From: an uncultured Candidatus Saccharibacteria bacterium
GTDB taxonomy: Bacteria; Patescibacteriota; Doudnabacteria; UBA920
DNA: 64,000 nt
Assembly: GCA_964612745.1 (NCBI GenBank)
Contig: CAZTCH010000006.1
Span: 5,477-69,476, forward strand
Direction: 5' to 3'
Shown here: in pieces, positions 15,153 through 32,144 of the stretch
Layout of the letters: each line of letters begins with the position of its first letter
Position numbering within the stretch: position 1 is the stretch's first letter
Made by a program: the position numbers and the translations under genes
Notes under the pieces: generated by a model
Told to the model about the DNA's origin: nothing
The model's input: the letters and a program-made list of their open reading frames with translations, nothing else
The model's database searches: none

Positions 15153-15227
15153 TCGGGAGTAGCTCAGCGGTAGAGCGGCACGCTGTTAACGTGATGGTCC
15201 TGGGTTCGATCCCCAGCTCCCGAGCCA
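15153..15227 (+). tRNA. tRNA-Asn (anticodon GTT), with an encoded CCA end.
   Basis: Manual cloverleaf folding: acceptor TCGGGAG/CTCCCGA, D-arm GCTC/GAGC, anticodon loop CTGTTAA, T-arm CTGGG-TTCGATC-CCCAG, and a CCA 3' end. Confidence 0.85.
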
Positions 15228-15786
15228 AGTAAGACGACTAGTAGAAATGCTAGTCGTTTTGCTTTGAATGGTTGCGAGATTAAATACTAAATCAAAAGGT
15301 TTTTTGAGTGTAAAGCTCAGTTCTTTACCGTTCAAAGTAGGGTTCTGAAGTAGGTAGTTTAAGAATGCTCGTTTTCCTGCAACTTCAGAACTAGTGTCAA
15401 AGATTGCCTTTGCCCGTTTAGCCACTGAAAGTACTGTAGTTACTGTTGTTTTGTAATCATAATCGGCCCTACTATGTTCTGACATCTCAATTTCCAGCGT
15501 TTGGATCTGGTCGTGTAGCTTCTGATGTTTTATGTCATATTCATCCTTAGTAATTCCCATTCACCAGAATTGTCCAACCATTCTGTACATCTCTAGTAGC
15601 ACACGCAGAAATGGAATTAGTTATTTCAGGCTCATGAGTTGTAAATATAGTTGTATCGGGAACATACAATTGGACTACTTTTGTAATTGGTATTGGGAGC
15701 GTAATTGGTAGTGACTCATGCGCTTCATCCAATATCTGTTTTGCTTTATAAGCACACTTATTAATCCAGTCTTTTGTTGGGTACAT
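15186..15786 (-). pseudogene. Two overlapping out-of-frame ORFs (79 aa and 124 aa), possibly a disrupted recombinase remnant. The downstream ORF runs 42 nt into the tRNA-Asn 3' end.
   Basis: The ORFs overlap by 14 nt in different frames. The C-terminal ...KRAFLNYLLQNPTLNGKELSFTLKKPFDLVF resembles the C-terminal tail of large serine recombinases, but the resemblance is weak. Overlap with a tRNA 3' end is typical of integration sites. Confidence 0.3.
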
Positions 15787-15807
15787 GACAGTTCTTCGGC
15801 AAGTATT

Positions 15808-16149
15808 CTACTTGTTGATGGTATTCTTAATGGATAAAATGTATTGTTCAACTTTTTTTACCTGTGCTTCACTTAAGTCGTATTTTGCCCGTAAAACAAT
15901 CGCTACGTTCGAGTTATCTTTAATGTAGTCTTCTTTGGTGATGCCAGCTCTATTTAAAATCAGTTCTAAAGGTAAAGATAGGCCCTCAGCTATTTTCTGT
16001 AATGTTTTTATGGTAGGGGAGCCCTCTGTATAATCGCCAGCTTCAAGTCTGGAGATGTACCCACGTGTAAGACCAGCCTTTTGGGCCAAAACTTCTTGGG
16101 TTAAATCTTTTTCTTCGCGAAGAGATTTTATGACTTGATGTAGTTTCAT
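15808..16149 (-). CDS. XRE-family helix-turn-helix transcriptional regulator.
   Basis: LTQEVLAQKAGLTRGYISRLEAG is an HTH_XRE signature. The gene is divergent from the downstream plus-strand cluster. Confidence 0.8.
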   Translation of the reverse strand: MKLHQVIKSLREEKDLTQEVLAQKAGLTRGYISRLEAGDYTEGSPTIKTLQKIAEGLSLPLELILNRAGITKEDYIKDNSNVAIVLRAKYDLSEAQVKKVEQYILSIKNTINK

Positions 16150-16313
16150 AGTACAAATAATATATTGCGTTACTATAGTAAGGTTACCACAGTAACTATT
16201 TCTTTGCAAGTCATTAAGTGATGGGCTGCTATTCGTCTAATTTCTTGCTATAATTGGTGCTAATAAAATTAACTACAATTGTACGACTACCATTCCCGTA
16301 CAGGTTAAATTAT

Positions 16314-17045
16314 ATGATTACACTCATTGAACCATTTGGCTACCACATTTCTACCAACACCATAGGCGAAGCGTGGCATGAACTATTCTCCACTGTTTTG
16401 GAGCATGGGGCCGTTGAATTTGACGAAGGACGAGAAAGGTTGGCTCTACAAATGGTTAGGATTCATTCTAAGTCTCAAAACTTCCCGGACGCAATTATAC
16501 AAAAATTTGGTAACGAGAAGAATCTTCAGTCGATAATTGAGCTCACATTTGGCGATCGCACTATGTACGATGTAGACGTAGTGAAAAGCTTCACAGTAGG
16601 CGCTAAAAGCTATTTCGCACGTTTAGAAGAAGGTAGGATGGTGGAGTTTGTCGTAGACCGCTTAAGCATTATCCCAGAGAGCAAAAAAGCAGTTATCGTA
16701 TTTCCAACGTACGAAGACTATCGTGCAATACTTACGAACCACACCAATGACTACCTCCCTTGTATTGTTTCTATACAATACAGAATGCGGCCTAATAATG
16801 GCGGTTGGTTGCTGAATACAATATTCAACATGCGCTCGCTCGATGCCTACCAGAAAGCGCACGGTAATTTAGCTGCGATGGCCATCTTAACAAGTAATAT
16901 CGCAGAACAAATAAGCAAAAGGCTAGGGGTGGAAGTAGTACCTGGTACCATAGACGGTTTGATAGTGGACGCCCATATATATAACGAAACAGTAAGCGAG
17001 GCAAAAGATAAAGTACAATTAATCAAAAGTGAATTACATGATTAA
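16314..17045 (+). CDS. Divergent thymidylate-synthase-fold enzyme (ThyA/dUMP hydroxymethylase family).
   Basis: ...LPCIVSIQYR...MRSLDAYQKAHGN...DAHIY aligns to the ThyA segments PCH-FQF, RSxD, GxPxN and DTHLY. The catalytic Cys and the pyrimidine-binding Asn are retained. The rest of the protein is far from canonical ThyA. Confidence 0.8.
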   Translation: MITLIEPFGYHISTNTIGEAWHELFSTVLEHGAVEFDEGRERLALQMVRIHSKSQNFPDAIIQKFGNEKNLQSIIELTFGDRTMYDVDVVKSFTVGAKSYFARLEEGRMVEFVVDRLSIIPESKKAVIVFPTYEDYRAILTNHTNDYLPCIVSIQYRMRPNNGGWLLNTIFNMRSLDAYQKAHGNLAAMAILTSNIAEQISKRLGVEVVPGTIDGLIVDAHIYNETVSEAKDKVQLIKSELHD

Positions 17046-17892
17046 TCCTAAGAGTCGGGATGAGATTACTCGCAGCCTAGAGAAAAGAACCAAGGAAAAC
17101 TTAGACTCACTACAGATTATCGAAGATGCTCTATTAGTATTGAGAAGCTCCATCTTCCAGATGCCAGAACCAGGTACTCGCGTAGTTACTTCTCTTTCCG
17201 GAGGGGTGGATTCCGTAGCTTGTTGTGCTATATTGCTGGAAGCCTTTCAGTTAGAAGTGTTTCCATTTTTTATCAATCGGGGTCATCGCGCAAAGGATAG
17301 AGAAATGGAAAGTATTCAATTTTTCGCCGATTTATTTTCTAAAAGATATCCTAACTCTTTCCATGCGCCCGTTGTAATGAATGTGGATATTCCGCCAAAG
17401 TCTATCAAGCCACTTTTGGATGGGAATAAGAACCATGACGTAGGAATACCTATGAGGAATTCCATAATAAATGAATACGGTGTGCAGTATGCCTTTGCTT
17501 TGAGCAGTAAAGCATCCCCGGTAAGAAATGTCTTCTGTGCTTTAGTTGCGTCAGATGGGGACTTTATGTTCCACTCTACTCTAACGGCGTTGCGTTCACA
17601 GATGCTCCATACTTGTATAGATATGTCTGACTCCTCGTGGCAGGTCAGTTCTGTTGCTATCGAACGAGAAATCGGACATTACTTAGACAAGGCAGATTTA
17701 ATTCAAATAGCTGCTGGTATGGACATGCCACTTGAACGCTCTAGAACCTGCTATAGCGCTGACATACTTCACTGCGGCGCTTGTGAGGCATGTTATGACA
17801 GAAAGTCCGCATTCGAAAAAGCAGGGATTCAGGATAAAACAGAATACACTGATACACGTTCAGCCGCGTTAATTAAACCAAGCTATTTATAA
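17029..17892 (+). CDS. QueC-like PP-loop ATPase (7-cyano-7-deazaguanine synthase family).
   Basis: SGGVDS PP-loop, an IPMRN motif, and a C-terminal zinc-binding CYSADILHCGACEACYDR typical of QueC. Confidence 0.8.
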   Translation: MNYMINPKSRDEITRSLEKRTKENLDSLQIIEDALLVLRSSIFQMPEPGTRVVTSLSGGVDSVACCAILLEAFQLEVFPFFINRGHRAKDREMESIQFFADLFSKRYPNSFHAPVVMNVDIPPKSIKPLLDGNKNHDVGIPMRNSIINEYGVQYAFALSSKASPVRNVFCALVASDGDFMFHSTLTALRSQMLHTCIDMSDSSWQVSSVAIEREIGHYLDKADLIQIAAGMDMPLERSRTCYSADILHCGACEACYDRKSAFEKAGIQDKTEYTDTRSAALIKPSYL

Positions 17893-17907
17893 AAAAGACT
17901 AACTTGT

Positions 17908-18480
17908 ATGACTCGATCTATCACACTGGTAACAAAGAATCCTTTGAAAATAGAAGCCATGGAAAGAGCGCTCGTACCCTACAAGATTGCTCTGAACGTT
18001 GAAAATTTTTACGTTCCTGAAATACAGTCGGACACTTGTGAAGAGGTGGCTAAATTTAGCGCTCAGTATGCTGCAAATTATTCTGGAAAAGCAGTGGTAA
18101 AAGCAGACACTGGTTTTTATATTGATTCACTTGGCGGGTTGCCTGGAGTGTATACGAGCGAGTTTGAGAGAAAACTAAGCCCACAGAAACTCTTGAAGCT
18201 CATGCAAGACGAAACTACTAGGAGCGCCTCAGTTGTCTACGCTGTTGCATTCTGCCTACCTCAAGGTGAACCAGTGGTTTTTAGTAGCGGGTCAAGAGGA
18301 ATTATCGCTGAAGATGTTCAAGGCCAAGATGGAATGTTAATCGACTCAATATTTATTCCAGAAGGATTTACTAGAACCTTGGGTGAAATAAAATTGGAAA
18401 GCCAGGCTCAAGCAGATGCAGTGTGGGGAGACGCCGAAGAACAGTTTATAAAATGGTATATACAGACACAGCCAATCTAG
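17908..18480 (+). CDS. Ham1/ITPase-family non-canonical NTP pyrophosphatase.
   Basis: ITLVTKNPLKIEA (TGNxxK-like), KADTGFYIDSLGGLPGVYTSEF, and a C-terminal FIPEGF...GE segment match the Maf/Ham1 fold. Confidence 0.75.
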   Translation: MTRSITLVTKNPLKIEAMERALVPYKIALNVENFYVPEIQSDTCEEVAKFSAQYAANYSGKAVVKADTGFYIDSLGGLPGVYTSEFERKLSPQKLLKLMQDETTRSASVVYAVAFCLPQGEPVVFSSGSRGIIAEDVQGQDGMLIDSIFIPEGFTRTLGEIKLESQAQADAVWGDAEEQFIKWYIQTQPI

Positions 18481-18556
18481 TACCGCATCGGTATCGCCTT
18501 GTACTGACAATTATATTAAATTGAAAGGAGGGCAAGAGATACATCTCTATGCCCTC

Positions 18557-18928
18557 CTACTTCGGGAAGAAAAGTGCAATTTCTCTTTTCGCTTCCTCAA
18601 AGTTATCTGGTGAATGCATCACGTTGTGCGTAACGGATGCGCTATATTGTGTCCGCATAGCCTTTTTAACCGCCAACCCGGTGGCAACGGCGTTTGGACC
18701 TTGCCATACTTGAGCAATAATTGGTGCCGAAGTCTCGAAGGCTACATGCACCCAGAATTGCTCGTCATAGTACGGAAAATCTCGCCACCGAAGCATGAAG
18801 GCTTTGTCTAGCTGCATGCTTTTTTCGTATACAAGCGTTAGACCCGCTTGTCGCATGGCGGCCCCTATAACGGGTGTCAGCTCTAGGGTTATGGCATCGG
18901 GCTTAAGGAGCACAAGTGTTTGCTCCAT
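18557..18928 (-). CDS. ndk: Nucleoside diphosphate kinase.
   Basis: TLVLLKPDA and NVMHSPDNFEEAKREIALFF (catalytic His present), 123 aa. Confidence 0.88.
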   Translation of the reverse strand: MEQTLVLLKPDAITLELTPVIGAAMRQAGLTLVYEKSMQLDKAFMLRWRDFPYYDEQFWVHVAFETSAPIIAQVWQGPNAVATGLAVKKAMRTQYSASVTHNVMHSPDNFEEAKREIALFFPK

Positions 18929-19043
18929 CTTTTGCCTCCGTTTTTGTGTGGAAGTGAACTTTATATGCAGCCGTTACTGCATCTTGCCTGTGAGGGCAGA
19001 AAAGACTAATGGTCTGGCATATAAAGCCTGTAACTTATTTTAA

Positions 19044-19089
19044 GTTGCAGGAGCTATTGGTAAGTAATCTTCTAAACAGCTCCTGCAAC
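19044..19089. terminator. Long hairpin (12-bp stem GTTGCAGGAGCT/AGCTCCTGCAAC) downstream of ndk.
   Basis: The inverted repeat is visible. The loop is about 22 nt, so terminator function is uncertain. Confidence 0.45.
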
Positions 19090-19278
19090 TCAAAATATTT
19101 GCCATCTGTTGTTTATGTTGCCTGTTTCTGAGTTTTTGGTATTTTGACTACTATATCATAGAAACGACGAAAAACAAGGGTCGCATGAAAAATGCCGTAA
19201 AATGGCTCTAATTTGATTGTAAAATAGAAGAGTTCATCATATACTAAGACCAAGCTGTATTAGCTATATAAGTGACTT

Positions 19279-19866
19279 ATGACTATCGTTTTTGAAGGTC
19301 TTCCCGGGTCAGGCAAGACAACACTCGTAAATCATTTTGCGAGAATTTTTGAAGCCGAAGTAGTTCCGGAAATTATTGACTTGGGTGAATCTTGGAAGCG
19401 TGCGTGTGCCACGAATGACCAGAGCTTCTTTTGGCAAAATGATTTGCAAAAATCACTAATCGCTGCACAAGCCCCAAAACATGCTTTTCTAGATCGTGGA
19501 TACGTTACCACTCTCGCTTATAATTACTCAGGCTGGATTTTTAACCAGGAATCTGATTTTCCAAAATTACTTAATAACTATTTTACGGATATTGTTCCAA
19601 AAAATCTCCAACCAGACGCATATCTACTATTTTCAATGTCTACTAAGTTAAGCAATGAAAGAAAGAAGCGGGAAACCATTAAAGGCCACCCCATGCAGGA
19701 TGAGGATTTTCTTAAGAAGATACATTTTTTCTACCAATCTTTCCTATCAACATTTGAGCCGGATATACCTGTGTATCACGTAGACGCGAATGCTTCCCTT
19801 GAGACAGTCCAGGAAAATGTTAAGCACATTTTAACCAGAATCTTACAAGCGCATGGCAATAGCTAA
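19279..19866 (+). CDS. P-loop nucleoside/nucleotide kinase, thymidylate-kinase-like.
   Basis: A GLPGSGKTT P-loop and FLDRGYVTTLAYNYS, which resembles the Tmk DRYxxSxxAYQ motif. Confidence 0.7.
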   Translation: MTIVFEGLPGSGKTTLVNHFARIFEAEVVPEIIDLGESWKRACATNDQSFFWQNDLQKSLIAAQAPKHAFLDRGYVTTLAYNYSGWIFNQESDFPKLLNNYFTDIVPKNLQPDAYLLFSMSTKLSNERKKRETIKGHPMQDEDFLKKIHFFYQSFLSTFEPDIPVYHVDANASLETVQENVKHILTRILQAHGNS

Positions 19867-21190
19867 AAAAATGAAAACCGTTGCAGTGGTATACTTGTCT
19901 CACGATGGACTTGCGAGCCTGTACACAGGAGTCGGAACTTCTGGTCGAGATTTTTGTTTGGCATTTGAAACTATTCAGAAGAAATATAAAAAGAAAGGAT
20001 TGGCACTTACTCTATTCCCTGGAACAATTAGATACAAAAGCAGCTTTCACGGATATAGGGTAGACATTGAAAATGAGGTGTCCGCTATTTGTAAGCGCAG
20101 CGGCGGCAAAATGATTTGGATCGACAATGGTACGCACGGAACTGTTTCGTACGGAGGTCTGGCACAGTGGAAGAAGTGCTCTGCTAGTGCAGCAAAATAT
20201 ATACGAACCCTTTCAGAAAAGTATGACCATGTTATTGCGTTTGCCAATGACACCCCCTTCGCAGGGGTGGGCAGATTAGTTCAGTCACCAAATGTAAGCA
20301 CCGTCTGGGTACCCCATAGCACCGTTATGGTACATAAAGACTTTCGCCTTACCAAAAAAGATGGCAAGACTCAAGCATTTACGCAGAAGCGTTTTATGTG
20401 GGAGCGAGCAGCAATCCAGTGGGCCAATGAGAGCCGCAATAACTGGACTGGCTACACAAGTTTATTCATGAAGCGCCATCTTGTTTCAGCGTATCGAGCA
20501 GACCTATTAAAACTCATGGATACGCAAGTAGGTATATATTTCCCTAGACTTGCGAGTTATAGAACATCACAAACAGAAATAAAAAATAGGCTAACAAGCT
20601 TGGGAATCCCTACAAACAAAGAACTTATTACTACCTTTGCGAGGGCTGAAATGTACAAAGGAGTAGATCTAACACTGGCATTGGGTAAATACACCCATGA
20701 CAAGTATGGAACAACAACCGTGATATTAGTAATACCATACTCAAACAGAGACCCTTATATAAAAGAGATGCAGCAACTACGGGATCGAGTGGATAAAACT
20801 GCAATCCTGCTGTTCGGCCATGATTTCCTCACGCCTCACCTGCTGATGCAGTGGAAACACACCAAAATGGTAGCTGTGCTATCAAGGCAAGAGCCAGCCG
20901 GGCACGTCCCTAATGAATTCAGATACTACAGTAATCCAAACGCGCGACTACTAGTTTCTGACCGTGACGGCCTACCAGAAAGAGTTGCAGACGGTGCAGA
21001 CGGATTTATTACTAGCGTCAACAGCTTAGGGGACATTAAGAGGAAAGCTGACACTATTTTTGCTCTATCTTCTGTAAAATCAAAGTTAATTGCAAAACGT
21101 GGACGCCAGAGAGTCCTGCACGATTACTCCATAGTATCCAATATAGATCGGACACTTAAAAAGATTATGAGTTTATATAATTTAACCTAA
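19853..21190 (+). CDS. 445-aa protein, tentatively a GT-B-fold glycosyltransferase-like enzyme.
   Basis: The N-terminal VVYLSHDGLASLYTGVGTSG and the C-terminal ARLLVSDRDGLPERVADGADGFI resemble the GT4/GT-B donor-binding region. The match is weak. Confidence 0.5.
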   Translation: MAIAKKMKTVAVVYLSHDGLASLYTGVGTSGRDFCLAFETIQKKYKKKGLALTLFPGTIRYKSSFHGYRVDIENEVSAICKRSGGKMIWIDNGTHGTVSYGGLAQWKKCSASAAKYIRTLSEKYDHVIAFANDTPFAGVGRLVQSPNVSTVWVPHSTVMVHKDFRLTKKDGKTQAFTQKRFMWERAAIQWANESRNNWTGYTSLFMKRHLVSAYRADLLKLMDTQVGIYFPRLASYRTSQTEIKNRLTSLGIPTNKELITTFARAEMYKGVDLTLALGKYTHDKYGTTTVILVIPYSNRDPYIKEMQQLRDRVDKTAILLFGHDFLTPHLLMQWKHTKMVAVLSRQEPAGHVPNEFRYYSNPNARLLVSDRDGLPERVADGADGFITSVNSLGDIKRKADTIFALSSVKSKLIAKRGRQRVLHDYSIVSNIDRTLKKIMSLYNLT

Positions 21191-21196
21191 CAAACT

Positions 21197-21868
21197 ATGC
21201 CCATTATCGATTCCTTCACAAAAGAAATAGCCATTATAGAAACGCTCTTCGGAAAATCCTATGAAGATGCAGGTGGTGCCGGGTATCGGTACTATCATAG
21301 TATGAGAGTGGCGAAAACTTGCGAAAGTCTTGCTCAATACGAACAGGTAGAAAATCCAAGGCTCTTAGTATTGGCGGGGTTGTTCCATGACATTGGTAAA
21401 TCTGAGCGTATAGAACAAAATGGCTTCTTGGATGGCCGTCAGGAGGCCGACGTTCTGAAGGGAAATCACGAAGACTACACACTGGTGAAAGAACTGCTCC
21501 AGCGGTATTTAGTTGACCTTCAGCCTGATCAAGACTTAGACATTGTTGCTTCGTATATTGCCAAGAATGATACCAAGGAATCTAAGCTGCTTAAAGACGC
21601 AGATAACCTTGATGAAGTAGGCCTTGTAAACGTTTGGAAAATGTTTACATATGGAGGACTAAAGAAAATATCAATTAAAGATACGCTTGACTATTATTTT
21701 AAGGAAGATAAACCACGTTTACTTAAAAAAATTGATGCTCTCATGAATTTTGATATTTCAAAACAGATGGCGAGCGAGCGTGTGCAAAAAGTTGACGAGT
21801 TCTTGCGTAACTTGGACAAAGAATGTAAAGCAGAAGACATTTCCGTATTGAGGAATTCTTCTTTTTAG
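21197..21868 (+). CDS. HD-domain phosphohydrolase.
   Basis: H...HD metal-binding motifs (YHSMRVAKT and LFHDIGK). Confidence 0.8.
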   Translation: MPIIDSFTKEIAIIETLFGKSYEDAGGAGYRYYHSMRVAKTCESLAQYEQVENPRLLVLAGLFHDIGKSERIEQNGFLDGRQEADVLKGNHEDYTLVKELLQRYLVDLQPDQDLDIVASYIAKNDTKESKLLKDADNLDEVGLVNVWKMFTYGGLKKISIKDTLDYYFKEDKPRLLKKIDALMNFDISKQMASERVQKVDEFLRNLDKECKAEDISVLRNSSF

Positions 21869-21879
21869 TGTAACCACTT

Positions 21880-22653
21880 ATGCAGTATTCAAAGACAGTT
21901 ATCCCAATAGTCAGAGAGGTGCGAAAGTTACTTTTGCCATACTGGGGCACTGTAGACATTATTGCGCAAAAAGATGCATCGTCTCCTGTTAGTGTAGTAA
22001 CAAAGCTGGATTTTGCAGTAGAAAAACAGGTGGCGGAAAGACTTGCCCAAGTTTACCCTCATATCCCATTTATCGGTGAGGAGTACGGGGGAGATAGAGA
22101 AGCCTCAAGATTCTGGCTTATGGACCCCATAGACGGAACGAACCATTTTGTTCGAGGTTTACCATTTTGCACTTCCATGGTCGCCCTTGTTGAGGAAGGA
22201 CAAGTTATCTTTTCTGCTATTTATGATTTTGTAAATGATCACATGTACTGGGCAGAGCGAGGGTTCGGGGCATATTGCGAAACTGAACGCCTGAGTGTTA
22301 GCAAACGCCCTCTTTCTGAAGCCTACATTTGTTGGGAAAGTCGCATAGAGAATCCAGATAATTTAGCACTGTTTCTAAAATTATACGAGAAAGCTATTCT
22401 GCTCAAAACAGTTGCCTCCGGCTGGGAATACGCCATGATAGCCTCCGGTAAGCTTGATGCCCGCATTTGTTTCGACCCGTATAGTAAAGACTACGATTTT
22501 GCCGCTGGGTCACTTATGGTGTCTGAGGCGGGAGGGGTTGTGGCGAATATTGGGTCAAAGGAGTATGACCATAAAAATTTAAATTTTATTGCTGCAAATC
22601 CTATTATATATTCAGAGCTGACAGAAAAGGCTGACTCGTTGTTTCATAAATAA
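21880..22653 (+). CDS. Inositol-monophosphatase-family phosphatase (IMPase/CysQ-like).
   Basis: WLMDPIDGTNHF and WEYAMIASGKLDA motifs. Confidence 0.85.
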   Translation: MQYSKTVIPIVREVRKLLLPYWGTVDIIAQKDASSPVSVVTKLDFAVEKQVAERLAQVYPHIPFIGEEYGGDREASRFWLMDPIDGTNHFVRGLPFCTSMVALVEEGQVIFSAIYDFVNDHMYWAERGFGAYCETERLSVSKRPLSEAYICWESRIENPDNLALFLKLYEKAILLKTVASGWEYAMIASGKLDARICFDPYSKDYDFAAGSLMVSEAGGVVANIGSKEYDHKNLNFIAANPIIYSELTEKADSLFHK

Positions 22654-22750
22654 GATAAATTTACATAGCGATATTAAGAATTTGAGCCGATAAATTTAAT
22701 TCAAGGCTAATTTTCTTCCAATCTAGAGTTCTGAACTCGTCCACGATACG

Positions 22751-22796
22751 GAGCCAACAAAAAAGTAGTACTTCGGTACTACTTTTTTGTTGGCTC
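22751..22796. terminator. Strong hairpin (21-bp stem GAGCCAACAAAAAAGTAGTAC/GTACTACTTTTTTGTTGGCTC) after the IMPase gene.
   Basis: A perfect inverted repeat with a 4-nt loop. Confidence 0.7.
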
Positions 22797-22925
22797 TAGA
22801 AAGGGCTGGGGATCGAAGGGAGCGGTTCGCTACCAGCGAAATTTCATGCGAATGCTTGGAGTATGAAATAGTGGCGGGCCAGCGTTAGGTGTTTAAATAG
22901 AGGCGCCTGAAACCTTTTCTTTTTA
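22776..22925. repeat. Copy 1 of a tandemly duplicated intergenic element of about 110-130 bp (TTGGCTCTAGAA...GCGTTAGG...).
   Basis: About 85% identity to 23040-23150. Confidence 0.6.
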
Positions 22926-23039
22926 GCTTGAGCGGAGGAGGGCACCCAAGCAAAATAAATAGCACCACTCATGCGTGGTGCTATTTTATTTGATTAATAT
23001 TTCGTTTGAGGATTCAAATAAAGGTACCTGACACCTTTT

Positions 23040-23216
23040 TTCTTGGCTCTAGAAGGAGCTCAGGGATCGAAAAGAGCGTTCTGCTACCAGCAGAATTTCA
23101 TGCGAATACGTGGAGCATGAAATAGCGGCGGGGTCGCGTTAGGCGTTATTCGAAACGACCATGAGCCTGTCGAATGGGAGTTGAGAATAGCCGTGGGTGA
23201 CCGATCCTCAGCTCCC
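23040..23216. repeat. Copy 2 of the same intergenic element. It ends in a 16-nt near-copy of the tRNA-Asn 3' end.
   Basis: CGATCCTCAGCTCCC at 23202-23216 versus CGATCCCCAGCTCCC in the tRNA. The distal part (...TTCGAAACGACCATGAG...GAGAATAGCCGTGGG) recurs at 54715-54790. Confidence 0.6.
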
Positions 23217-23221
23217 ATAAT

Positions 23222-23557
23222 TTATTCTCCTAAAATATCTTTTAAGACATTGTCAAATCCGAAAAGTTTTGAACGGGCAATGGCAAATACTTCTTGTAGT
23301 TTATCTCCGTGAGTTATACTGAATCCTTCCTCGCCAATACGCATGAATTCACTATGGTCATCTCTATTAGGATAATAGTACAGCCAATGTGCTCCTTCTG
23401 AGTCTTTCAGAACAGACCAGAGGTATTTATCGTCGGGGTAAGTAAAGTAAAACTCTTCACTTCCGCTCGGGGCATCGTCTGATTTTCGTACTGATTGAAT
23501 TTTTTCTTGGTCTGAAACTATTTTTTCGACGAGTTGTTGAATTTTTAGATTATTCAT
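23222..23557 (-). CDS. Hypothetical protein (111 aa, acidic, soluble).
   Basis: An ORF with a 1-bp gap to the upstream ORF. No recognisable motif. Confidence 0.55.
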   Translation of the reverse strand: MNNLKIQQLVEKIVSDQEKIQSVRKSDDAPSGSEEFYFTYPDDKYLWSVLKDSEGAHWLYYYPNRDDHSEFMRIGEEGFSITHGDKLQEVFAIARSKLFGFDNVLKDILGE

Positions 23558-23558
23558 A

Positions 23559-24002
23559 TTACTTGCCTTTAGAATTATGGTTTTCTACCTCTAAGGTGGT
23601 TATGCTCTCCTTAATCTCGCTATATAAACTAATTTTGTCTGTTTCGTTAACCTGTTTACCTTCATCAATATCGGTCATCATGACGCGAACTCTTTTCATC
23701 ATATTGTCCCCGAAGTGTTTGCTTAAAGTGGGATTGCCTTTAATTTTTCCCAGGATATGAGCTAAAGCAGAACGAAATTTTTTTGATTTATCTTTATCGT
23801 CCTGACTGCTTTCATGTAGGGTTTCTATCCAATGTCTTAGGTCCGCCAAGGATGCTTGGAGAGAGTAACTTAGAAGAACTGCAAGTGCAGCCGATATTTT
23901 CTTACGTTGCGTAATGGCTACGATAATGGCTGCTACCCCCACCGTTATCTCTGTAATATTCGCTATAAATGAGATGCCTGCTTGAATAGTTTGGAAGGTC
24001 AT
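23559..24002 (-). CDS. Hypothetical membrane-anchored protein (147 aa, N-terminal TM helix).
   Basis: An ORF with a hydrophobic N-terminus, paired with 23222-23557. Confidence 0.55.
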   Translation of the reverse strand: MTFQTIQAGISFIANITEITVGVAAIIVAITQRKKISAALAVLLSYSLQASLADLRHWIETLHESSQDDKDKSKKFRSALAHILGKIKGNPTLSKHFGDNMMKRVRVMMTDIDEGKQVNETDKISLYSEIKESITTLEVENHNSKGK

Positions 24003-24329
24003 AATGGTCCACCCGGGCTGGATTGTTCAATCTAGCACCGTTAATCATGCAATACTTGTTATTTTACTCCCTAGTCTACTCATTTTAATCCTCCGTTGGT
24101 TTTCTGTCTATAAGTATGTTTTTGTGCATTAAAGGATTAATGGGAAGAAAGAGTTAGAAAAGGTCTTGGAGGATTATTTTAAACAGCACCCTTGGGGTAA
24201 GTAGATTTAAATAAGGGTGCCTGACACCTTTTCTTTCTATTTCATGTCTAGTTAAAATTGCCGAATTTAGCTTACGAGAAAATGAAAATGGTGGTAAAAT
24301 TATGATAAATCATCAGACCCTTTTTTGTT

Positions 24330-27300
24330 ATGACCCCTACGACAGCGCAATTTGATAGCAAAGTGCTCCGACGCTCCAAGAGCGAAAGCGACTTTAACTT
24401 GTATAGAGCTGCCTTAGAGTGGGGACTTATTGACCCTATTGTGATAGAAAGTTCGGAAGATTTAAAGTCGAAGTATAGGTGGGAAGATCGTGTAAGTCCA
24501 TACAAGCATCAGGTAACTAACCTGATTACTTTCTGTCGGAGGCTTCCTGTGAGTTTATTGGCAGATGATGTGGGCTTGGGTAAAACCATAAGTGCAGGGC
24601 TAATTGCAAGTGAACTTATTTCCCGAGGTCGTCTTACAAAGATATTAATAGTTTGTCCAAAAATCCTACGGGACCAGTGGCAAGAAGAGCTGCGTGTAAA
24701 ATTTGATATTCAATCCGTCATTGTCACAGGCCAAGAGTTAGTTAAAGTAAAGCCACCTGAAGAAGGTGGCGCAGTTATTACTACTTATAATACCGCCCGC
24801 TTGTATCTTGATAAGATAGAGAAGGTTGGGTACGAAATGTTAATCCTGGACGAAGCGCATAAGCTAAGGAATCTGTATGGGACTGACGCGGCACCAAAAG
24901 TCGCATTGAAATTTAAGAAAGCGTTAGCTGATAGATTATTTCAATATGTATTAATGTTAACCGCAACACCTATCCATAATAGGTTGTGGGATATTTATTC
25001 TTTGATAGATTTGTTGGCTGTCGCTCGAGGCCACGAAAACCCCTTTGGTCAGGAGGGGATATTTGCTCGTAAATATATAGAGGGAGATAAAATTCAGGCT
25101 CGCCGACTACGGCTAGAGGCTAAGGAGGAATTCCGAGACAATGTATACAGGTATATGTCTCGAATTAGACGCGGAGATACAGACTTAAGTTTTCCAGAAA
25201 GAGTTATTCAACTGCACCCAGTTGAACCATCAGCAGAAGAAGTAGAATTGCTGAATTTAATCCGAGAACCAATCAAGGAAGTTAATTTTCTTTCTCAAAT
25301 AACTATATTACAAACTTTTGTTAGCAGTCCTGAGGCTCTGTTGAGAGTCCTAGAAAATATGGCGCTAAACAAAACGTTGCCCAAATCCTTACAACTACAG
25401 GATGTCAAAGCAATTGTTTCAAGAATCAAAATTACAGCTAAGTTGAAAGGGCTGGGTATTTTGATAGAAAAACTTAGCCAAGAGAAACCGGAAGATTGGC
25501 GTGCAGTAATATTTACAACTCGAAGAGAAACTCAGACTACAATACAACACTTTCTTCAACAGAAGGGTATTTCTTGCGGTCTGATTAATGGTGACTCTGG
25601 ATCTAGAAACCAGGATACTATAGCGAATTTCACTGCTGATGTCCCCAAGATTCATGTAATAGTTTCTACAGAGGCAGGTTCTGAAGGTGTTAACTTACAA
25701 AAAGCCAACGTGCTGGTTAATTACGACTTACCGTGGAATCCCATGATCGTAGAGCAGCGTATTGGTCGCATTCAACGTCTTAGTTCTAAATTCGCTAAAG
25801 TATCAATCTTTAATATTATTTTAAAAGGTACTTTTGAAGAATACATTGTGGCAAGGTTGGTCGAAAAGTTGCAGATGGCTTCTAATGCAATAGGAGATAT
25901 TGAAGCATTATTGGAAGCATCTGGGATTGACGATGATGATAATGACTCCGATGGGTTTGCAGATAAAATAGGTAAATTAGTGCTAGCCTCATTGGCTGGT
26001 ATGGATGTCCAAGAGTCTACTTTACGAATAGAAAAAAGTATAGAAGACGCTAAGTTTAAGCTTGAACAAGAAAAACAGACTATAAATACTCTTTTGGGCA
26101 GTATGAATGGCGCCGAGGATATGGGCCCAAAGTGCCCTAAGCTACCTACCCAAGTTAGGTCTATTAATGTCCAATCTTTTGTGATGCAGGCACTTGAAAG
26201 CCTTGGAGTGCGTATAGAAGAGAAATCTGGTCAGCGTGTTGCTGTGTCGGAAAACCAACAAGAGGTAATTCGTTTCTCGGACGAAAAAGTCGATCCTGAT
26301 TTAATAAGTACTCTATACGCTCCTGGTACACCTGCATTTGAACGTTTAGTTTCTCGGGTTGCTGCCAGAGATTTACACTTAACTGAAGATGTAGATACAG
26401 ATATAATAAACTCCTTAAAGGAGATATCTTGTCAGTGGGCAGAAGGTTTCGAGGGAGAGATACAAGACTCCAGAATTACAGAAACTTGGCGGTGCTTTCA
26501 AGGCAGCGCGTTGGTGCGTGTCAGAGCAACAGTTGCATGCGATAGTTATGAAAGACTAATAGATATAGACTGTAGTCCGGAAGACCACTGTATGGAGACA
26601 GGGAAATATGGTCTAGACACGATTGGTGAAATAATCGACCAGCCCAGCAGTGTGGGTGTGGTAACCAAACACCTATATGAGAAGGCTCTTATGGATGAAG
26701 GTATATCAGAATTCAGTAGGTTCTATACAGAACGCCGTGCCCAAGAAATTAGCGCATCGGGTAGTGACGAAAGAAAACGAAAAAAAGTAGAAGATGACTT
26801 CACGCCTCGTCTAGATATAGTTCTCGTTGGGTTAAAAGGGACCGTTTATCGTAAGATAAAGACACTAGCTTCTTATAAATTAAGTGCTGACTTTGAATAC
26901 CAAAGTTCTCTCTTAATAACGCCTTACACAAATACGATAAATCAATCTCCGGATTTAGTGAGGTGCGATAAAACTGGCAGGATGGCACCACAAGACTGTA
27001 TTGCTAAATGTGAGATTAGTGGGTCTCGCGTATTGAGGCACCTCTTAGTGGCGTCTGAGTTAAGCGGTCGATTAGCTCTGCCAGAACATATCTTAATATG
27101 CAGTCTAAGTACTAAGCGTGTGCTAATTGACGAAGCCGACAAATCTTCAATTACAGGGAAGATGATAACAAAGAACTTACTCTATACATCAGCAGTAAGT
27201 GGTAAGACTGCGGAGCCAGAATTTTTTAGCAAGTGTGAATTTACTGACACGCATGCTTTGGAAGCTGAGTTGGAAATAAGTCAGGTTTCTGGAAAGAAGT

Positions 27301-31968: not shown

Positions 31969-32144
31969 GGTATGTTGAGTTAAGAAAAGGTACCAGGTAC
32001 CTTTTCTTAACACATACTCGCACTCGGTTTACACGCTGTACTCGGAGCGGTATTTCGCAAGTAGCGGCTATAGGGTTGTGCGTAGTGGCGTGTAGCTACA
32101 GTTCGCTCTTGAACAATACCCTGTTTTCAGGGCATACTACGTGC

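What the first reader, a model, noticed from the sequence alone, without database searches (positions are those of the whole stretch)
15153..23216. 8-kb island at tRNA-Asn carrying a complete nucleotide-modification toolkit (ThyA-fold, QueC-like, Ham1, Ndk, Tmk-like, GT-B-like, HD, IMPase-like)
Immediately 3' of tRNA-Asn(GTT) lies a pair of out-of-frame ORFs that runs 42 nt into the tRNA. This looks like a recombinase remnant. An XRE regulator follows, and then a co-oriented cluster transcribed divergently from it. The cluster contains:
- a highly divergent ThyA-fold enzyme, with the catalytic Cys and the pyrimidine-binding Asn retained but the rest unlike canonical ThyA;
- a QueC-like PP-loop ATPase;
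- a Ham1/ITPase;
- a thymidylate-kinase-like P-loop kinase;
- a 445-aa GT-B-like protein;
- an HD phosphohydrolase;
- an IMPase-family phosphatase;
- ndk, on the opposite strand.

This gene set matches a base-modified nucleotide route: base-modified dNMP, then dNDP, then dNTP, with clean-up of competing canonical nucleotides and a glycosyl decoration. T-even and SPO1-like phages use this logic for hmC and hmU DNA. The segment ends with a 15/16-nt copy of the tRNA 3' end (23202-23216), which looks like an attR site.

Alternative: a divergent but housekeeping dTTP synthesis and salvage module.
Basis: partly seen in the sequence, partly recalled or inferred. Interest (0 to 1): 0.85.

Follow-up and report, generated by a model that had tools for sequence, protein, structure and literature searches.

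The report
Mobile gene cluster for an unusual nucleotide
Next to a tRNA gene sits a dispensable, horizontally spread set of eight enzymes that looks built to make and activate a non-standard pyrimidine nucleotide, and its core enzyme pair recurs in many ultra-small bacteria and archaea but I found no description of it.

Summary
The attR-like repeat is 14/15, not 15/16, and is weak evidence.

The cluster is accessory. A 98%-identical strain has an OLD-family nuclease at the same tRNA-Asn locus, followed by the last 124 nt of the GT gene, then HD and IMPase.

The ThyA-like protein belongs to a compact, uncharacterised family (about 50% identity across Patescibacteria, DPANN archaea and a few others). 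It keeps the catalytic Cys and the dUMP-type Asn. It fails every thymidylate-synthase equivalog cut-off. In 73 of 86 loci a QueC-like PP-loop ATPase lies nearby, usually overlapping it. An NTP pyrophosphatase (divergent Ham1, NUDIX or CYTH) and P-loop kinases are common neighbours.

The Tmk-like/GT/HD/Ndk part recurs as one rare cluster in Nanoarchaeota, Omnitrophota and Saccharibacteria, once beside a serine recombinase and terminase. The GT model resembles small-molecule GT4 enzymes (LmbT, MshA), not phage DNA glucosyltransferases. No close homologue was found in phage collections.

Best reading (0.4): a mobile route to a C5-modified, possibly re-aminated and glycosylated pyrimidine nucleotide. 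Whether it ends up in DNA is unproven. A housekeeping role is disfavoured.

The parts
15153..15227 (+). tRNA-Asn(GTT), left boundary / integration target
   Evidence: ARAGORN and Rfam RF00005, 65 bits. The same tRNA starts the variant locus L097 in a close relative.
15186..15560 (-). 3' remnant of a large serine recombinase gene (124-aa ORF that reads 42 nt into the tRNA)
   Evidence: Residues 3-95 are 30% identical to residues 394-485 of a 499-aa recombinase family protein on NZ_LR134433 (tblastn E 8e-8, pairwise 6e-12). No Pfam hit.
15547..15786 (-). 79-aa ORF of unknown origin between the recombinase remnant and XRE
   Evidence: No Pfam, NCBIfam or PHROG hit. No match to the recombinase.
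15808..16149 (-). XRE-family HTH regulator, divergent from the cluster
   Evidence: PF01381 HTH_3 3.7e-15. Called as a 113-aa gene on the Logan contig L001.
16314..17045 (+). ThyA-like enzyme (243 aa), member of a distinct compact family
   Evidence: PF00303 1.8e-7. TIGR03283 scores 48 bits against a cut-off of 175. AF2 pLDDT 95.6. Nearest structures are MilA and flavin-dependent dCMP hydroxylases at about 17% identity. Invariant C150, R174-S175, D177, N185, H221 and Y223.
17038..17892 (+). QueC-like PP-loop ATPase (284 aa, subtype B); its start overlaps the ThyA-like stop
   Evidence: PF06508 2.3e-16. TIGR00364 scores 39.5 bits against a cut-off of 150. The SGGxDS motif and four Zn-type Cys are conserved. 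A QueC-like gene lies within 7 kb of the ThyA-like gene in 73 of 86 loci, usually directly downstream.
17908..18480 (+). Divergent Ham1-family NTP pyrophosphatase (190 aa)
   Evidence: PF01725 1.7e-28. It lacks the ITPase SHR and GFGYDP motifs. A conserved Trp replaces SHR, as in the other core-module Ham1 proteins.
18557..18928 (-). Short nucleoside-diphosphate kinase (123 aa)
   Evidence: PF00334 8.7e-20. NF001908 scores 74 bits against a cut-off of 155. It holds the same position and orientation in the extended clusters of relatives.
19036..19097 (.). 23-nt inverted repeat in the ndk / Tmk-like intergenic region (possible operator or bidirectional terminator)
   Evidence: the repeat finder I2, 91% complementary, 16-nt spacer.
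19279..19866 (+). Tmk/dNK-like P-loop nucleotide kinase (195 aa)
   Evidence: TIGR00041 4.3e-12 (below cut-off). PHROG 761 thymidylate kinase 4.5e-18. PADLOC VakA 8.9e-9. It always lies directly upstream of the GT in relatives.
19853..21190 (+). GT-B (GT4-like) glycosyltransferase (445 aa), a rare family
   Evidence: Only 8 protein clusters found among 5.8e9. AF2 pLDDT 84.7. Best PDB match is LmbT (E 7e-27, TM 0.80-0.87), then MshA, BshA and sucrose-phosphate synthase. No close viral structure.
21197..21868 (+). HD-domain phosphohydrolase (223 aa)
   Evidence: PF01966 1.2e-11. Follows the GT, directly or after one PLP-enzyme gene, in the extended clusters examined.
21880..22653 (+). IMPase-family phosphatase (257 aa). 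Specific to this lineage and not part of the conserved cluster.
   Evidence: PF00459 2.6e-47. Absent from relatives' clusters, where a HAD phosphatase occurs instead. The HD-IMPase pair is kept in the 98%-identical strain.
22751..22796 (.). Perfect 21-bp hairpin: bidirectional terminator-like end of the operon
   Evidence: the repeat finder I3, 100% complementary, 4-nt loop, T/A runs on both sides.
23202..23216 (+). 14/15 copy of the tRNA-Asn 3' part (possible attR)
   Evidence: 0.05 expected per window; 5 of 2954 random windows score as high. Weak evidence.

Best explanation
The segment is a decayed integrative element at tRNA-Asn. Its cargo is a self-contained 'push-pull' route to a non-canonical pyrimidine (deoxy)nucleotide.

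**Proposed flow (all chemistry is inferred)**
1. The divergent Ham1 pyrophosphatase converts a pyrimidine (d)NTP, most simply dUTP, to the monophosphate.
2. The ThyA-like enzyme attacks C6 with Cys150 and installs a one-carbon unit at C5 of the uracil mononucleotide. The Asn185 signature points to uracil. The invariant Asp146-Tyr147 pair aligns with E. coli A142-L143, so methyl versus hydroxymethyl stays open.
3. The translationally coupled QueC-like PP-loop ATPase adenylates an oxygen of that product and replaces it with nitrogen. This would be either C4 amination, giving a 5-substituted cytosine nucleotide, or amidation of a carboxylate.
4. The Tmk-like kinase and Ndk raise the product to the triphosphate.
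5. The GT4 glycosyltransferase, with the HD and IMPase phosphohydrolases, glycosylates a hydroxyl- or thiol-bearing intermediate and trims phosphates or removes competing nucleotides.
6. The likeliest destination is nucleic acid of the cell or of the element that brought the genes.

**Shown:** gene content, operon coupling, cross-phylum conservation, accessory and mobile status, and non-membership of the housekeeping enzyme families.

**Inferred:** every substrate, every product and the final destination.
For: - Domain content and tight spacing. The QueC-like start overlaps the ThyA-like stop. The Tmk-like and GT genes overlap by 14 nt. GT/HD and HD/IMPase are 6 and 11 nt apart.
- A QueC-like gene lies near the ThyA-like gene in 61 of 82 and 73 of 86 loci. 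QueC-Ham1 fusions occur in DPANN and an MTase-Ham1 fusion in L075.
- Three unrelated NTP (pyro)phosphatase families (Ham1, NUDIX, CYTH) appear next to the pair in different loci. P-loop NMP kinases, canonical Tmk, an NDK-like gene and a dCTP-deaminase-like gene also recur.
- The full set Ndk, QueC-like, Tmk-like, GT, HD, Ham1 and ThyA-like is conserved in Nanoarchaeota, Omnitrophota, Saccharibacteria and unbinned metagenome contigs.
- The ThyA-like protein keeps the Cys, the phosphate-binding residues and the dUMP-type Asn. It lacks the D169N hydroxylase signature (rules from PMC13326640). It fails all ThyA equivalog cut-offs.
- The Ham1 lacks the ITPase base-recognition motifs.
- The cluster is accessory and mobile. 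There is a recombinase remnant and an XRE regulator. A 98%-identical strain carries an OLD nuclease and only a GT 3' stub at the same tRNA. The relative's contig L096 breaks inside the tRNA. L083 and L101 place the cluster between tRNA-Gln and a serine recombinase plus terminase.
- Combining an NTP pyrophosphatase, a ThyA homologue, a dNMP kinase and a GT is the documented logic of phage pre-replicative base replacement (PMC13326640; bioRxiv 10.1101/2023.12.21.572611).
Against: - No substrate or product is known, and no DNA-level component was found (no dedicated polymerase, glycosylase inhibitor or modification-dependent nuclease).
- The nearest structures to the GT all act on small molecules, not DNA. 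No close viral GT exists.
- The ThyA-like family and the GT were not found in IMG/VR or INPHARED phages.
- Two phosphatases (HD, IMPase) in the same operon as two kinases fit a dephosphorylated nucleoside end product equally well.
- QueC descends from an enzyme that binds a purine-like base. It may therefore act in parallel with the ThyA-like enzyme rather than on its product.
- Most core-module loci sit among ordinary chromosomal genes, with no mobile-element marks.
Confidence: 0.4

Rival explanations
1. A biosynthetic cluster for a small-molecule modified nucleoside or free pyrimidine base (an antimetabolite or nucleoside-antibiotic-like compound), working like mildiomycin MilA/MilB/MilC or bacimethrin BcmA/BcmB/BcmC. 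The ThyA-like enzyme modifies a pyrimidine NMP. The QueC-like enzyme aminates or amidates it. A GT4 enzyme glycosylates it. The kinases and phosphatases provide cryptic phosphorylation and dephosphorylation.
For: - MilA gives the highest query-normalised TM-scores for the ThyA-like model (TMq 0.72-0.73).
- The GT is closest to LmbT, MshA, BshA and sucrose-phosphate synthase. All have small-molecule acceptors, and several are followed by a phosphatase step.
- In relatives the ThyA-like gene is flanked by a nucleoside 2-deoxyribosyltransferase/DNPH1-like protein (12 loci) or a SLOG/LOG-like protein (6 loci). Both are N-glycosidase-type families, like MilB and BcmB.
- A SAM methyltransferase, a PLP enzyme, a HAD phosphatase and a deacetylase sit in the extended clusters.
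- The alphaproteobacterial SLOG/ThyA-like pairs lie next to adenylation and PCP-thioesterase genes.
Against: - The window itself has no N-glycosidase, methyltransferase or PLP enzyme.
- To my knowledge Ndk plus an NMP kinase plus an NTP pyrophosphatase is not typical of nucleoside-antibiotic clusters. It points to an NTP-level product.
- The core pair is kept in roughly 0.7-Mb Saccharibacteria genomes, where secondary metabolism is unexpected.
- Asn185 indicates uracil, whereas MilA and BcmA act on cytosine.
Confidence: 0.25
2. An accessory pyrimidine/deoxynucleotide salvage, interconversion and pool-sanitation module for nucleotide-scavenging symbionts. This is essentially a divergent dTTP route: dCTP/dUTP to dUMP (DCD, Ham1/NUDIX/CYTH), then dTMP (ThyA-like), dTDP (Tmk-like) and dTTP (Ndk). 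The QueC-like enzymes would re-aminate deaminated nucleotides (U to C, I to A, or X to G).
For: - Every step of the canonical dTTP route has a representative among the neighbouring families: DCD in L092, interchangeable NTP pyrophosphatases, canonical Tmk directly upstream of the ThyA-like gene in three loci, Ndk, and YfbR-like HD and NUDIX in L003.
- The ThyA-like enzyme has dUMP-type Asn, Asp at the D169 position and a bulky residue (Tyr) at the L143 position (rule).
- The family is concentrated in Patescibacteria and DPANN, which reportedly lack known nucleotide biosynthesis pathways (PMC12455944).
- Three QueC-like subtypes, often two per locus, would fit several substrates.
- Nucleoside 2-deoxyribosyltransferase is a classical salvage enzyme.
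Against: - The cluster is dispensable in a 98%-identical strain and sits on a decayed integrative element under an XRE regulator.
- Only 76 relatives were confirmed among 185,579 species-representative genomes, and the family is compact (19 representatives at E<=1e-30). That is a patchy distribution, not a core function.
- Groundwater Patescibacteria are reported to already encode dTMP synthesis (PMC12455944).
- The GT, and the PLP enzyme, methyltransferase and deacetylase in relatives, have no role in salvage.
- The Ham1 is not ITPase-like.
- Nucleotide re-amination by a QueC-type enzyme is itself unprecedented.
Confidence: 0.25
3. An anti-phage (or anti-host) system that makes a toxic or chain-terminating nucleotide analogue, or depletes a dNTP, on induction. 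It would be comparable in logic to viperin-plus-kinase systems.
For: - The same tRNA-Asn hotspot carries an OLD-family nuclease in a close relative.
- An XRE regulator sits here and a LexA-like repressor sits in L086.
- The Tmk-like kinase matches the PADLOC model VakA (8.9e-9).
- An SNF2 helicase with DrmD/BrxH/DpdE-like similarity follows the island.
Against: - No PADLOC system model matches the ThyA-like protein, GT, Ham1, Ndk or IMPase.
- Most core-module loci are not in defence-island contexts.
- No sensor or effector component is recognisable.
Confidence: 0.08

Closest known systems
Phage pre-replicative pyrimidine replacement pathways (T4 glucosyl-hmC: gp56 dCTPase, gp42 dCMP hydroxymethylase, gp1 dNMP kinase, host Ndk, alpha/beta-GT; SPO1 hmU; RB69/DLP3 arabinosyl-5hoC, PMC13326640)
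   Same: - The cast is the same: NTP pyrophosphatase, ThyA-fold enzyme acting on a pyrimidine mononucleotide, dedicated NMP kinase, Ndk and a GT-B glycosyltransferase.
- The genes sit on a mobile element.
   Different: - The host is cellular (Patescibacteria/DPANN-type contexts), and no close homologue was found in phage collections.
- The ThyA-like enzyme has the uracil-type Asn and neither the D/E143 nor the D169N signature.
- An obligatory QueC-like PP-loop partner has no counterpart in those pathways.
- The pyrophosphatase is Ham1-family, not Dut/MazG-type.
- The GT is GT4/LmbT-like, not T4 AGT/BGT-like.
Mildiomycin MilA/MilB/MilC and bacimethrin BcmA/BcmB/BcmC pathways
   Same: - A ThyA-fold enzyme on a pyrimidine NMP (MilA gives the highest TM-scores).
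- N-glycosidase-type neighbours in relatives.
- A GT and a SAM methyltransferase in the extended clusters.
   Different: - Signature is uracil, not cytosine.
- The window has no N-glycosidase or methyltransferase.
- Ndk, an NMP kinase, Ham1 and a QueC-like enzyme are present.
- Sequence identity to MilA is only about 17%.
QueC (7-cyano-7-deazaguanine synthase) and QueC-like enzymes of defence systems (Cap9 of type IV CBASS, QatC)
   Same: - PP-loop SGGxDS motif and C-terminal four-Cys Zn motif.
- Best PDB sequence hits are Cap9 (9nto) and B. subtilis QueC (3bl5).
   Different: - TIGR00364 scores 39.5 bits against a cut-off of 150. QatC matches only 33 residues.
- No queD, queE or folE and no TGT partner was seen in the annotated part of the window.
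- The gene is coupled to a ThyA-like gene instead.
- There are at least three subtypes.
Methanogen-type thymidylate synthase (TIGR03283)
   Same: - It is the best NCBIfam hit (7.7e-13) and aligns over nearly the full length.
- It is also a short ThyA form lacking the long N-terminal folate-binding elements.
- The best phage hit is a 'putative methanogen-type thymidylate synthase' at 28% identity.
   Different: - Score is 48 bits against a cut-off of 175.
- In the profile search of 1.84e9 representatives, 19 score E<=1e-30; weaker matches of about 205-215 aa follow.
- The gene neighbourhood is different.
Z-genome pathway (PurZ, HD-domain DatZ, MazZ)
   Same: Same logic: an NTP pyrophosphatase supplies the monophosphate substrate, an HD phosphohydrolase removes a competing canonical nucleotide, and a modifying enzyme makes the new dNMP (from my own knowledge of that system).
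   Different: It concerns a purine, not a pyrimidine, uses unrelated enzyme families for the key step, and is viral.

Membership tests
Canonical thymidylate synthase ThyA (EC 2.1.1.45) | Catalytic Cys in the P-C motif, the R166/S167/D169 trio, N177, H207/Y209 and the R126'/R127' phosphate clamp | tested here: met
   C150, R174-S175-x-D177, N185, H221/Y223 and PESKK (for PDSRR) are invariant in 20 homologues.
Canonical thymidylate synthase ThyA (EC 2.1.1.45) | Score above the curated equivalog cut-offs, with the N-terminal folate-binding elements (E58, W80/W83) alignable | tested here: not met
   NF002495 scores 32.7 bits against 327 and TIGR03283 48.4 against 174.55. The Pfam match covers only profile positions 112-223. 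hhalign aligns only residues 103-231. No hit in PDB by sequence profile. Canonical ThyA structures give TMq 0.51-0.62.
dCMP/CMP hydroxymethylase (T4 gp42, MilA) | Asp at the N177 position (cytosine specificity) and an acidic residue at the L143 position | tested here: not met
   Asn185 is invariant. Tyr147 occupies the L143 position, although an invariant Asp146 precedes it (rule from PMC13326640).
Flavin-dependent 5-hydroxy-dCMP synthase (RB69 gp48 type) | The D169N substitution | tested here: not met
   Asp177 is invariant at that position (rule). The fold is nevertheless among the closest (9iqc, 9iqu).
QueC, 7-cyano-7-deazaguanine synthase | PP-loop SGGxDS motif and four-Cys zinc site | tested here: met
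   S57-G-G-x-D61-S62 and C241/C249/C252/C255 are conserved in 84-100% of 57 sequences.
QueC, 7-cyano-7-deazaguanine synthase | Equivalog-level score and a queuosine/archaeosine gene context (queD, queE, folE) | tested here: not met
   TIGR00364 scores 39.5 bits against 150.3. None of the window proteins I annotated is QueD, QueE or FolE. This was not an exhaustive scan of the window.
ITPase / RdgB / Ham1 (XTP/dITP diphosphatase) | Ham1 fold with the phosphate-binding T-x-N-x-x-K and D-x-G motifs | tested here: met
   PF01725 1.7e-28. TKNPLK and ADTGF are present.
ITPase / RdgB / Ham1 (XTP/dITP diphosphatase) | Base-recognition motifs GFGYDP and SHR, and an equivalog score | tested here: not met
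The best NCBIfam score is 119 bits against a cut-off of 203.
Phage-type DNA base-replacement / hypermodification system | Modified base present in DNA | not testable with these tools
   Needs LC-MS of digested DNA or raw nanopore signal.
Phage-type DNA base-replacement / hypermodification system | Encoded by a virus, or homologous to the viral enzymes | tested here: not met
   No relative of the ThyA-like protein in IMG/VR. INPHARED hits reach at most 28% identity. The GT has no phage hit. The best viral structure has TM 0.68 and is a generic GT1. Only adjacency to a serine recombinase and a weakly matching terminase in L083/L101 hints at a prophage.
DNA glucosyltransferase (T4 alpha/beta-GT type) | Structural similarity to DNA-acting GT-B enzymes | tested here: not met
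   The top 50 PDB matches are LmbT, MshA, BshA, sucrose-phosphate synthase, GlgM, TreT, VldE and similar enzymes. No T4 AGT or BGT appears.
tRNA-linked genomic island / integrative element | tRNA target, integrase, flanking direct repeats, and presence/absence among close relatives | tested here: met
   The tRNA is confirmed. Only a remnant of the integrase is left. The direct repeat is 14/15 and weak. Strain polymorphism at the same tRNA is shown by L097/L098 at 98% identity in the shared part.

The most novel reading that the evidence does not exclude
Ultra-small bacteria and archaea (Patescibacteria, DPANN) use the ThyA-like/QueC-like pair to make a pyrimidine deoxynucleotide unknown in cells. 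One example would be a 5-substituted cytosine made from dUMP by C5 transfer followed by PP-loop-catalysed C4 amination. In the extended cluster it would also be glycosylated. The product would then be incorporated into their own genomic DNA. This would be the first non-viral pre-replicative base replacement and a new nucleotide-level U-to-C (or carboxylate-to-amide) reaction for the QueC family.
Probability: 0.15. Interest if true: 0.9.

Novelty: new variant of a known kind. Interest (0 to 1): 0.72.

Why it matters
ThyA-fold enzymes are the entry point to every known pre-replicative pyrimidine modification, and new chemistry in this fold is still being found (5-hydroxy-dCMP synthases; PMC13326640). 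This window exposes a compact family that I found undescribed in the papers searched. It is hard-wired to a QueC-like PP-loop ATPase, a divergent Ham1 and nucleotide kinases.

The family is spread by horizontal transfer across Patescibacteria and DPANN, including human oral Saccharibacteria. If the product enters DNA, this would be a cellular counterpart of phage base replacement. It would affect restriction, sequencing and host-symbiont nucleotide traffic.

If the product is a small molecule, this would be a nucleoside-type metabolite pathway in organisms thought to have almost no secondary metabolism. If it is salvage, the module would define a new enzymatic route for balancing nucleotide pools in obligate scavengers.

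All three readings can be tested with a handful of recombinant enzymes.

Tried and rejected
- **Rfam.** Whole window at gathering thresholds, and 22600-24400 at E<=1. Only the tRNA and tmRNA were found. Nothing matched the two ~110-nt tandem repeats.
- **PADLOC.** No system-level match for the cluster.
- **IMG/VR pattern scan** with the ThyA-like alignment. No relative found.
- **INPHARED tblastn.** The ThyA-like protein gave only 25-28% identity hits to methanogen-type and Gordonia-phage thyA. The GT gave none.
- **PDB by sequence profile** for the ThyA-like family. No hit.
- **124-aa ORF against the L083 serine recombinase.** Not significant. The recombinase link came from a Legionella plasmid protein instead.
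- **Canonical ThyA (tblastn) and the ThyX RHR-x7-S motif** in the window and all held loci. Nothing real was found. Only about 20 kb per genome is held, so this says nothing about whole genomes.
- **tRNA-Gln-derived direct repeat in L083.** None within the 21 kb held.
- **Paralogues of the island genes elsewhere in the window.** None.
- **Literature searches** combining QueC-like, thymidylate synthase, Ham1, SLOG, Saccharibacteria, Patescibacteria and DPANN. No description of this module was found.
- **Idea rejected: the Ham1 is an ordinary ITPase feeding IMP or XMP to the QueC-like enzyme.** The core-module Ham1 proteins lack the purine-recognition motifs.
- **Idea rejected: the ThyA-like enzyme is a 5-hydroxylase.** It has no D169N substitution.
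- **One NCBIfam call failed** on a bad coordinate.

Full report
**1. What is in the sequence**

ARAGORN and Rfam place tRNA-Asn(GTT) at 15153-15227. On the minus strand, a 124-aa ORF (15186-15560) reads 42 nt into the tRNA. A 79-aa ORF in another frame (15547-15786) abuts it. Neither has a Pfam, NCBIfam or PHROG match.

Residues 3-95 of the 124-aa ORF are 30% identical to residues 394-485 of a 499-aa 'recombinase family protein' on a Legionella plasmid (tblastn E 8e-8; pairwise 6e-12). It is the 3' end of a large serine recombinase gene.

An XRE regulator (15808-16149, HTH_3 3.7e-15) is divergent from the cargo. The cargo genes are listed below.

| Gene | Coordinates | Strand |
|---|---|---|
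| ThyA-like | 16314-17045 | + |
| QueC-like | 17038-17892 | + (start overlaps the ThyA-like stop) |
| Ham1 | 17908-18480 | + |
| ndk | 18557-18928 | - |
| Tmk/dNK-like kinase | 19279-19866 | + |
| 445-aa GT | 19853-21190 | + |
| HD | 21197-21868 | + |
| IMPase | 21880-22653 | + |

A perfect 21-bp hairpin (22751-22796) ends the operon.

The proposed attR (23202-23216) is 14/15, not 15/16. About 0.05 such matches are expected per window. In a resampling test, 5 of 2954 random 110-nt windows reach its alignment score. It is weak on its own.

Island G+C is 0.416 against 0.461 upstream. The following 9 kb is just as low at 0.418.

**2. The cluster is accessory and the locus is a hotspot**

Contigs from close relatives settle this point. 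L096 is 93% identical over the upstream genes and stops 13 nt into the tRNA.

L097 and L098 come from aquatic metagenomes. L097 is laid out as follows:
- tRNA-Asn, 94% identical to the window;
- a copy of the ~110-nt repeat that in the window lies at 23035-23147;
- an OLD-family nuclease (AAA_15/AAA_21 plus OLD TOPRIM);
- at 98% identity, the last 124 nt of the GT gene, then HD, IMPase and the terminator.

A nearly identical strain thus lacks the recombinase remnant, XRE, the ThyA-like and QueC-like genes, Ham1, ndk, the Tmk-like kinase and most of the GT at this locus. It carries a defence-type nuclease instead. The GT stub shows that the full cluster is the older state there.

**3. The genes form a unit, in two tiers**

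*Family size.* The ThyA-like protein has more than 500 homologue clusters at 45-59% identity. They collapse to very few representatives at 50% clustering. Only 19 hits reach E<=1e-30 among 1.84 billion representatives. The family is compact and well conserved.

*Distribution.* A scan of one genome per species found 76 loci:
- mostly Patescibacteria, including human oral Saccharibacteria and Nanosynbacter, plus Woese-, Nealson-, Berkel-, Ames- and Uhrbacteria;
- DPANN archaea (Nanoarchaeota, Woesearchaeota);
- a few Omnitrophota, Desulfobacteraceae, Holophagaceae and Alphaproteobacteria.

*Tier 1, the core module.* Searching six-frame ORFs of these loci with the window's proteins gave the following.
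- A QueC-like gene lies nearby in 61 of 82 loci, and in 73 of 86 after more loci were added. It is usually immediately downstream and overlapping. The sets are not dereplicated.
- Parvarchaeota-type archaea encode a QueC-Ham1 fusion. L075 encodes an MTase-Ham1 fusion.
- Three unrelated NTP (pyro)phosphatase families appear next to the pair in different loci: Ham1, NUDIX and CYTH.
- Other recurrent neighbours are two families of AAA_17 P-loop kinases, canonical Tmk (directly upstream in three loci) and an NDK-like gene in oral Saccharibacteria.
- A nucleoside 2-deoxyribosyltransferase/DNPH1-like protein occurs in 12 loci.
- A SLOG (LDcluster4) protein overlaps the ThyA-like gene in the non-CPR bacteria, which lack the QueC-like gene.
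- L092 strings together an NDT-like gene, Ham1, QueC-like, a PLP aminotransferase, a short ThyA-like gene, a kinase, a dCTP-deaminase-like gene, a second QueC-like gene and a second Ham1.

*Tier 2, the extended cluster.* The GT family is rare: 8 clusters among 5.8 billion proteins, and 3 further metagenome loci. It always sits in one arrangement:

[HAD] [SAM-MTase, minus] Ndk(minus) QueC-like, Tmk-like, GT, [PLP enzyme], HD, Ham1, ThyA-like, [NDT-like, minus] [deacetylase]

This arrangement occurs in Nanoarchaeota, Omnitrophota, Saccharibacteria and unbinned contigs. In L083 and L101 the cluster lies between tRNA-Gln and a large serine recombinase followed by a terminase-like gene and ParB/N6_N4 methyltransferases. 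In L086 a LexA-like repressor is nearby.

*The window is a rearranged hybrid.* It combines a core-type ThyA-like / QueC-like (subtype B) / Ham1 (Trp-type) block with ndk and the Tmk-like / GT / HD block, plus a lineage-specific IMPase. It lacks the methyltransferase, PLP enzyme, NDT-like and HAD genes seen elsewhere.

**4. What the individual proteins say**

*ThyA-like protein.*
- The AF2 model has pLDDT 95.6.
- The best PDB matches are flavin-dependent dCMP hydroxylases (9iqc, 9iqu) and CMP hydroxymethylase MilA (TMq 0.72-0.73). Canonical ThyA gives TMq 0.51-0.62. All are at about 17% identity.
- hhalign with E. coli ThyA aligns only the C-terminal half. The equivalences are C150=C146, R174/S175/D177=R166/S167/D169, N185=N177, H221/Y223=H207/Y209, KK=R126/R127 and D146-Y147=A142-L143.
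- Published diagnostic positions (PMC13326640) then imply two things. Asn185 indicates a uracil mononucleotide substrate. Asp177 means it is not the D169N hydroxylase type.
- The L143 rule is ambiguous here. The residue at that position is a bulky Tyr, but it is preceded by an invariant Asp.
- The N-terminal folate-binding elements cannot be aligned. All thymidylate-synthase equivalog scores are far below cut-off.
- It is therefore a ThyA-superfamily enzyme, not a demonstrated thymidylate synthase.

*QueC-like protein.*
- The PP-loop and four-Cys motif are conserved, with at least three subtypes.
- The score is far below the QueC cut-off.
- The nearest solved relatives by sequence are Cap9 and QueC.

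*Ham1.* The fold and phosphate motifs are kept. The ITPase base-recognition motifs (GFGYDP, SHR) are replaced, with a conserved Trp, in all core-module copies. A different nucleotide specificity is likely.

*GT.*
- The AF2 model has pLDDT 84.7.
- The best match by far is LmbT, the GDP-octose:ergothioneine S-glycosyltransferase of lincomycin biosynthesis (E 7e-27, TM 0.80-0.87).
- MshA, BshA, sucrose-phosphate synthase, GlgM and TreT follow at TM of about 0.65.
- No DNA glucosyltransferase appears. The best viral model reaches TM 0.68 and is a generic GT1.

**5. How it most likely works**

The recurrent combination is an enzyme that degrades an NTP to the NMP, a C5-modifying ThyA-fold enzyme, an ATP-pyrophosphatase-type amidating enzyme, and kinases that take an NMP back to the NTP. 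This is a push-pull design: one nucleotide is pulled down and a modified one is pushed up. Phages use the same logic for hmC, hmU, 5hoC and related bases.

I therefore favour (0.4) a dedicated route to a non-canonical pyrimidine nucleotide. The ThyA-like enzyme would act on dUMP or UMP. The QueC-like enzyme would convert an oxo or carboxyl group of the product to an amino or amide group. Chemical precedents for this, from my own knowledge, are GMP synthetase, TilS, ThiI, QueC and LarE. The GT would add a sugar.

None of the chemistry is shown.

*Small-molecule rival (0.25).* It draws on the LmbT/MshA-like GT, the two phosphatases, and the MilB/BcmB-like N-glycosidases, methyltransferase and PLP enzyme found in relatives.

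*Salvage and pool-balancing rival (0.25).* Every step of the canonical dCTP to dUTP to dUMP to dTMP to dTDP to dTTP route has a representative among the neighbours, and the family is concentrated in nucleotide-scavenging symbionts. It leaves the GT unexplained. It also fits poorly with the mobile, dispensable, XRE-controlled setting.

*Defence reading (0.08).* It rests mainly on the hotspot context.

**6. Comparison with what is known, and novelty**

The system works like phage base-replacement and hypermodification pathways and like the Mil/Bcm nucleoside routes. It is not a member of either.
- The ThyA-like enzyme fails the canonical ThyA, dCMP-hydroxymethylase and 5-hydroxylase signatures.
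- The QueC-like enzyme fails the QueC cut-off and context.
- The Ham1 fails the ITPase motifs.
- The GT is not DNA-GT-like.
- No close viral homologues were found.

Six full-text searches found no description of a ThyA-like/QueC-like module. That is an absence in a partial library, not proof of novelty. I class the finding as a new variant of a known kind: a ThyA-homologue-based nucleotide-modification cluster with a new obligatory PP-loop partner, in cellular ultra-small prokaryotes.

**7. Limits**

- The organism is not identified. Its affinity to Patescibacteria is inferred only from the relatives of the cluster genes and the general gene content.
- Whole genomes could not be screened for canonical thyA, thyX, dut or tmk.
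- The loci sets are not dereplicated. L002 and L007 are the same contig, and the oral Saccharibacteria loci are near-duplicates.

Noticed in passing
window 22782-22925 and 23035-23147 (also L097 154-264): Two tandem copies of a ~110-145-nt element (82% identical over 85 nt) lie between the operon terminator and the attR-like site. They have a predicted long hairpin and a few one-sided or compensatory changes. A third copy sits directly after tRNA-Asn in the relative L097. There is no Rfam match. It may be a small RNA or a recombination-associated repeat.
   Followed up: partly
window 22892-22925, 23013-23046, 24206-24239: Three copies of a 34-nt terminator-like hairpin motif (AAAGGTRCCTGACACCTTTTYTT). 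The third lies just upstream of the SNF2 helicase gene.
   Followed up: no
window 24330-28031: A 1233-aa SNF2-family helicase lies just beyond the island. Its helicase part resembles DrmD, BrxH and DpdE of defence systems (E about 1e-54). The C-terminal ~700 residues have no Pfam domain. The low-G+C stretch (0.418) continues from the island to about 32 kb, so the foreign or variable region may be larger than the finding's coordinates.
   Followed up: partly
L097 354-2228 (relative of the window organism): An OLD-family nuclease (AAA_15/AAA_21 plus OLD-like TOPRIM, called as two ORFs) occupies the tRNA-Asn hotspot in place of most of the cluster.
   Followed up: partly
window 31979-32008 versus L097 2315-2344: A 30-nt stretch at the start of the NUDIX gene (31965-32597) is 100% identical, in inverted orientation, to the sequence at the OLD/GT-stub junction in L097. 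This hints at a rearrangement or a short mobile motif.
   Followed up: no
L004-L006, L018 (Parvarchaeota/Nanoarchaeota) and L075: Natural gene fusions: QueC-like-Ham1 (485 aa) directly after the ThyA-like gene, and unknown-domain-SAM methyltransferase-Ham1 (572 aa) in L075.
   Followed up: partly
L092 118-8316: A co-directional ten-gene nucleotide operon: unknown 428-aa protein, NDT-like, Ham1, QueC-like (subtype A), PLP aminotransferase, a short 207-aa ThyA-like protein of another subfamily, AAA kinase, dCTP-deaminase-like, QueC-like (subtype B) and Ham1.
   Followed up: partly
L087 7436-8741, L089 7436-8741 (Alphaproteobacteria MAGs): Overlapping SLOG (LDcluster4)/ThyA-like gene pairs with no QueC-like gene, next to an adenylation enzyme, a PCP-thioesterase protein and sulfotransferases. 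This looks like a different use of the same ThyA-like family.
   Followed up: no
L058-L074 (oral Saccharibacteria): A tRNA-guanine transglycosylase (Tgt) gene is divergent from, and about 280 nt upstream of, the ThyA-like/QueC-like/NUDIX/NDK-like operon. This is seen in this lineage only, and its relevance to the QueC-like gene is unknown.
   Followed up: no
window 54236-54632: tmRNA with the unusual tag peptide AAKTAWSKVEAAFNAATLVPVYA.
   Followed up: no
window 10374-10874: A bacterial SET-domain protein (PF00856, 1.8e-20) upstream of mscL.
   Followed up: no
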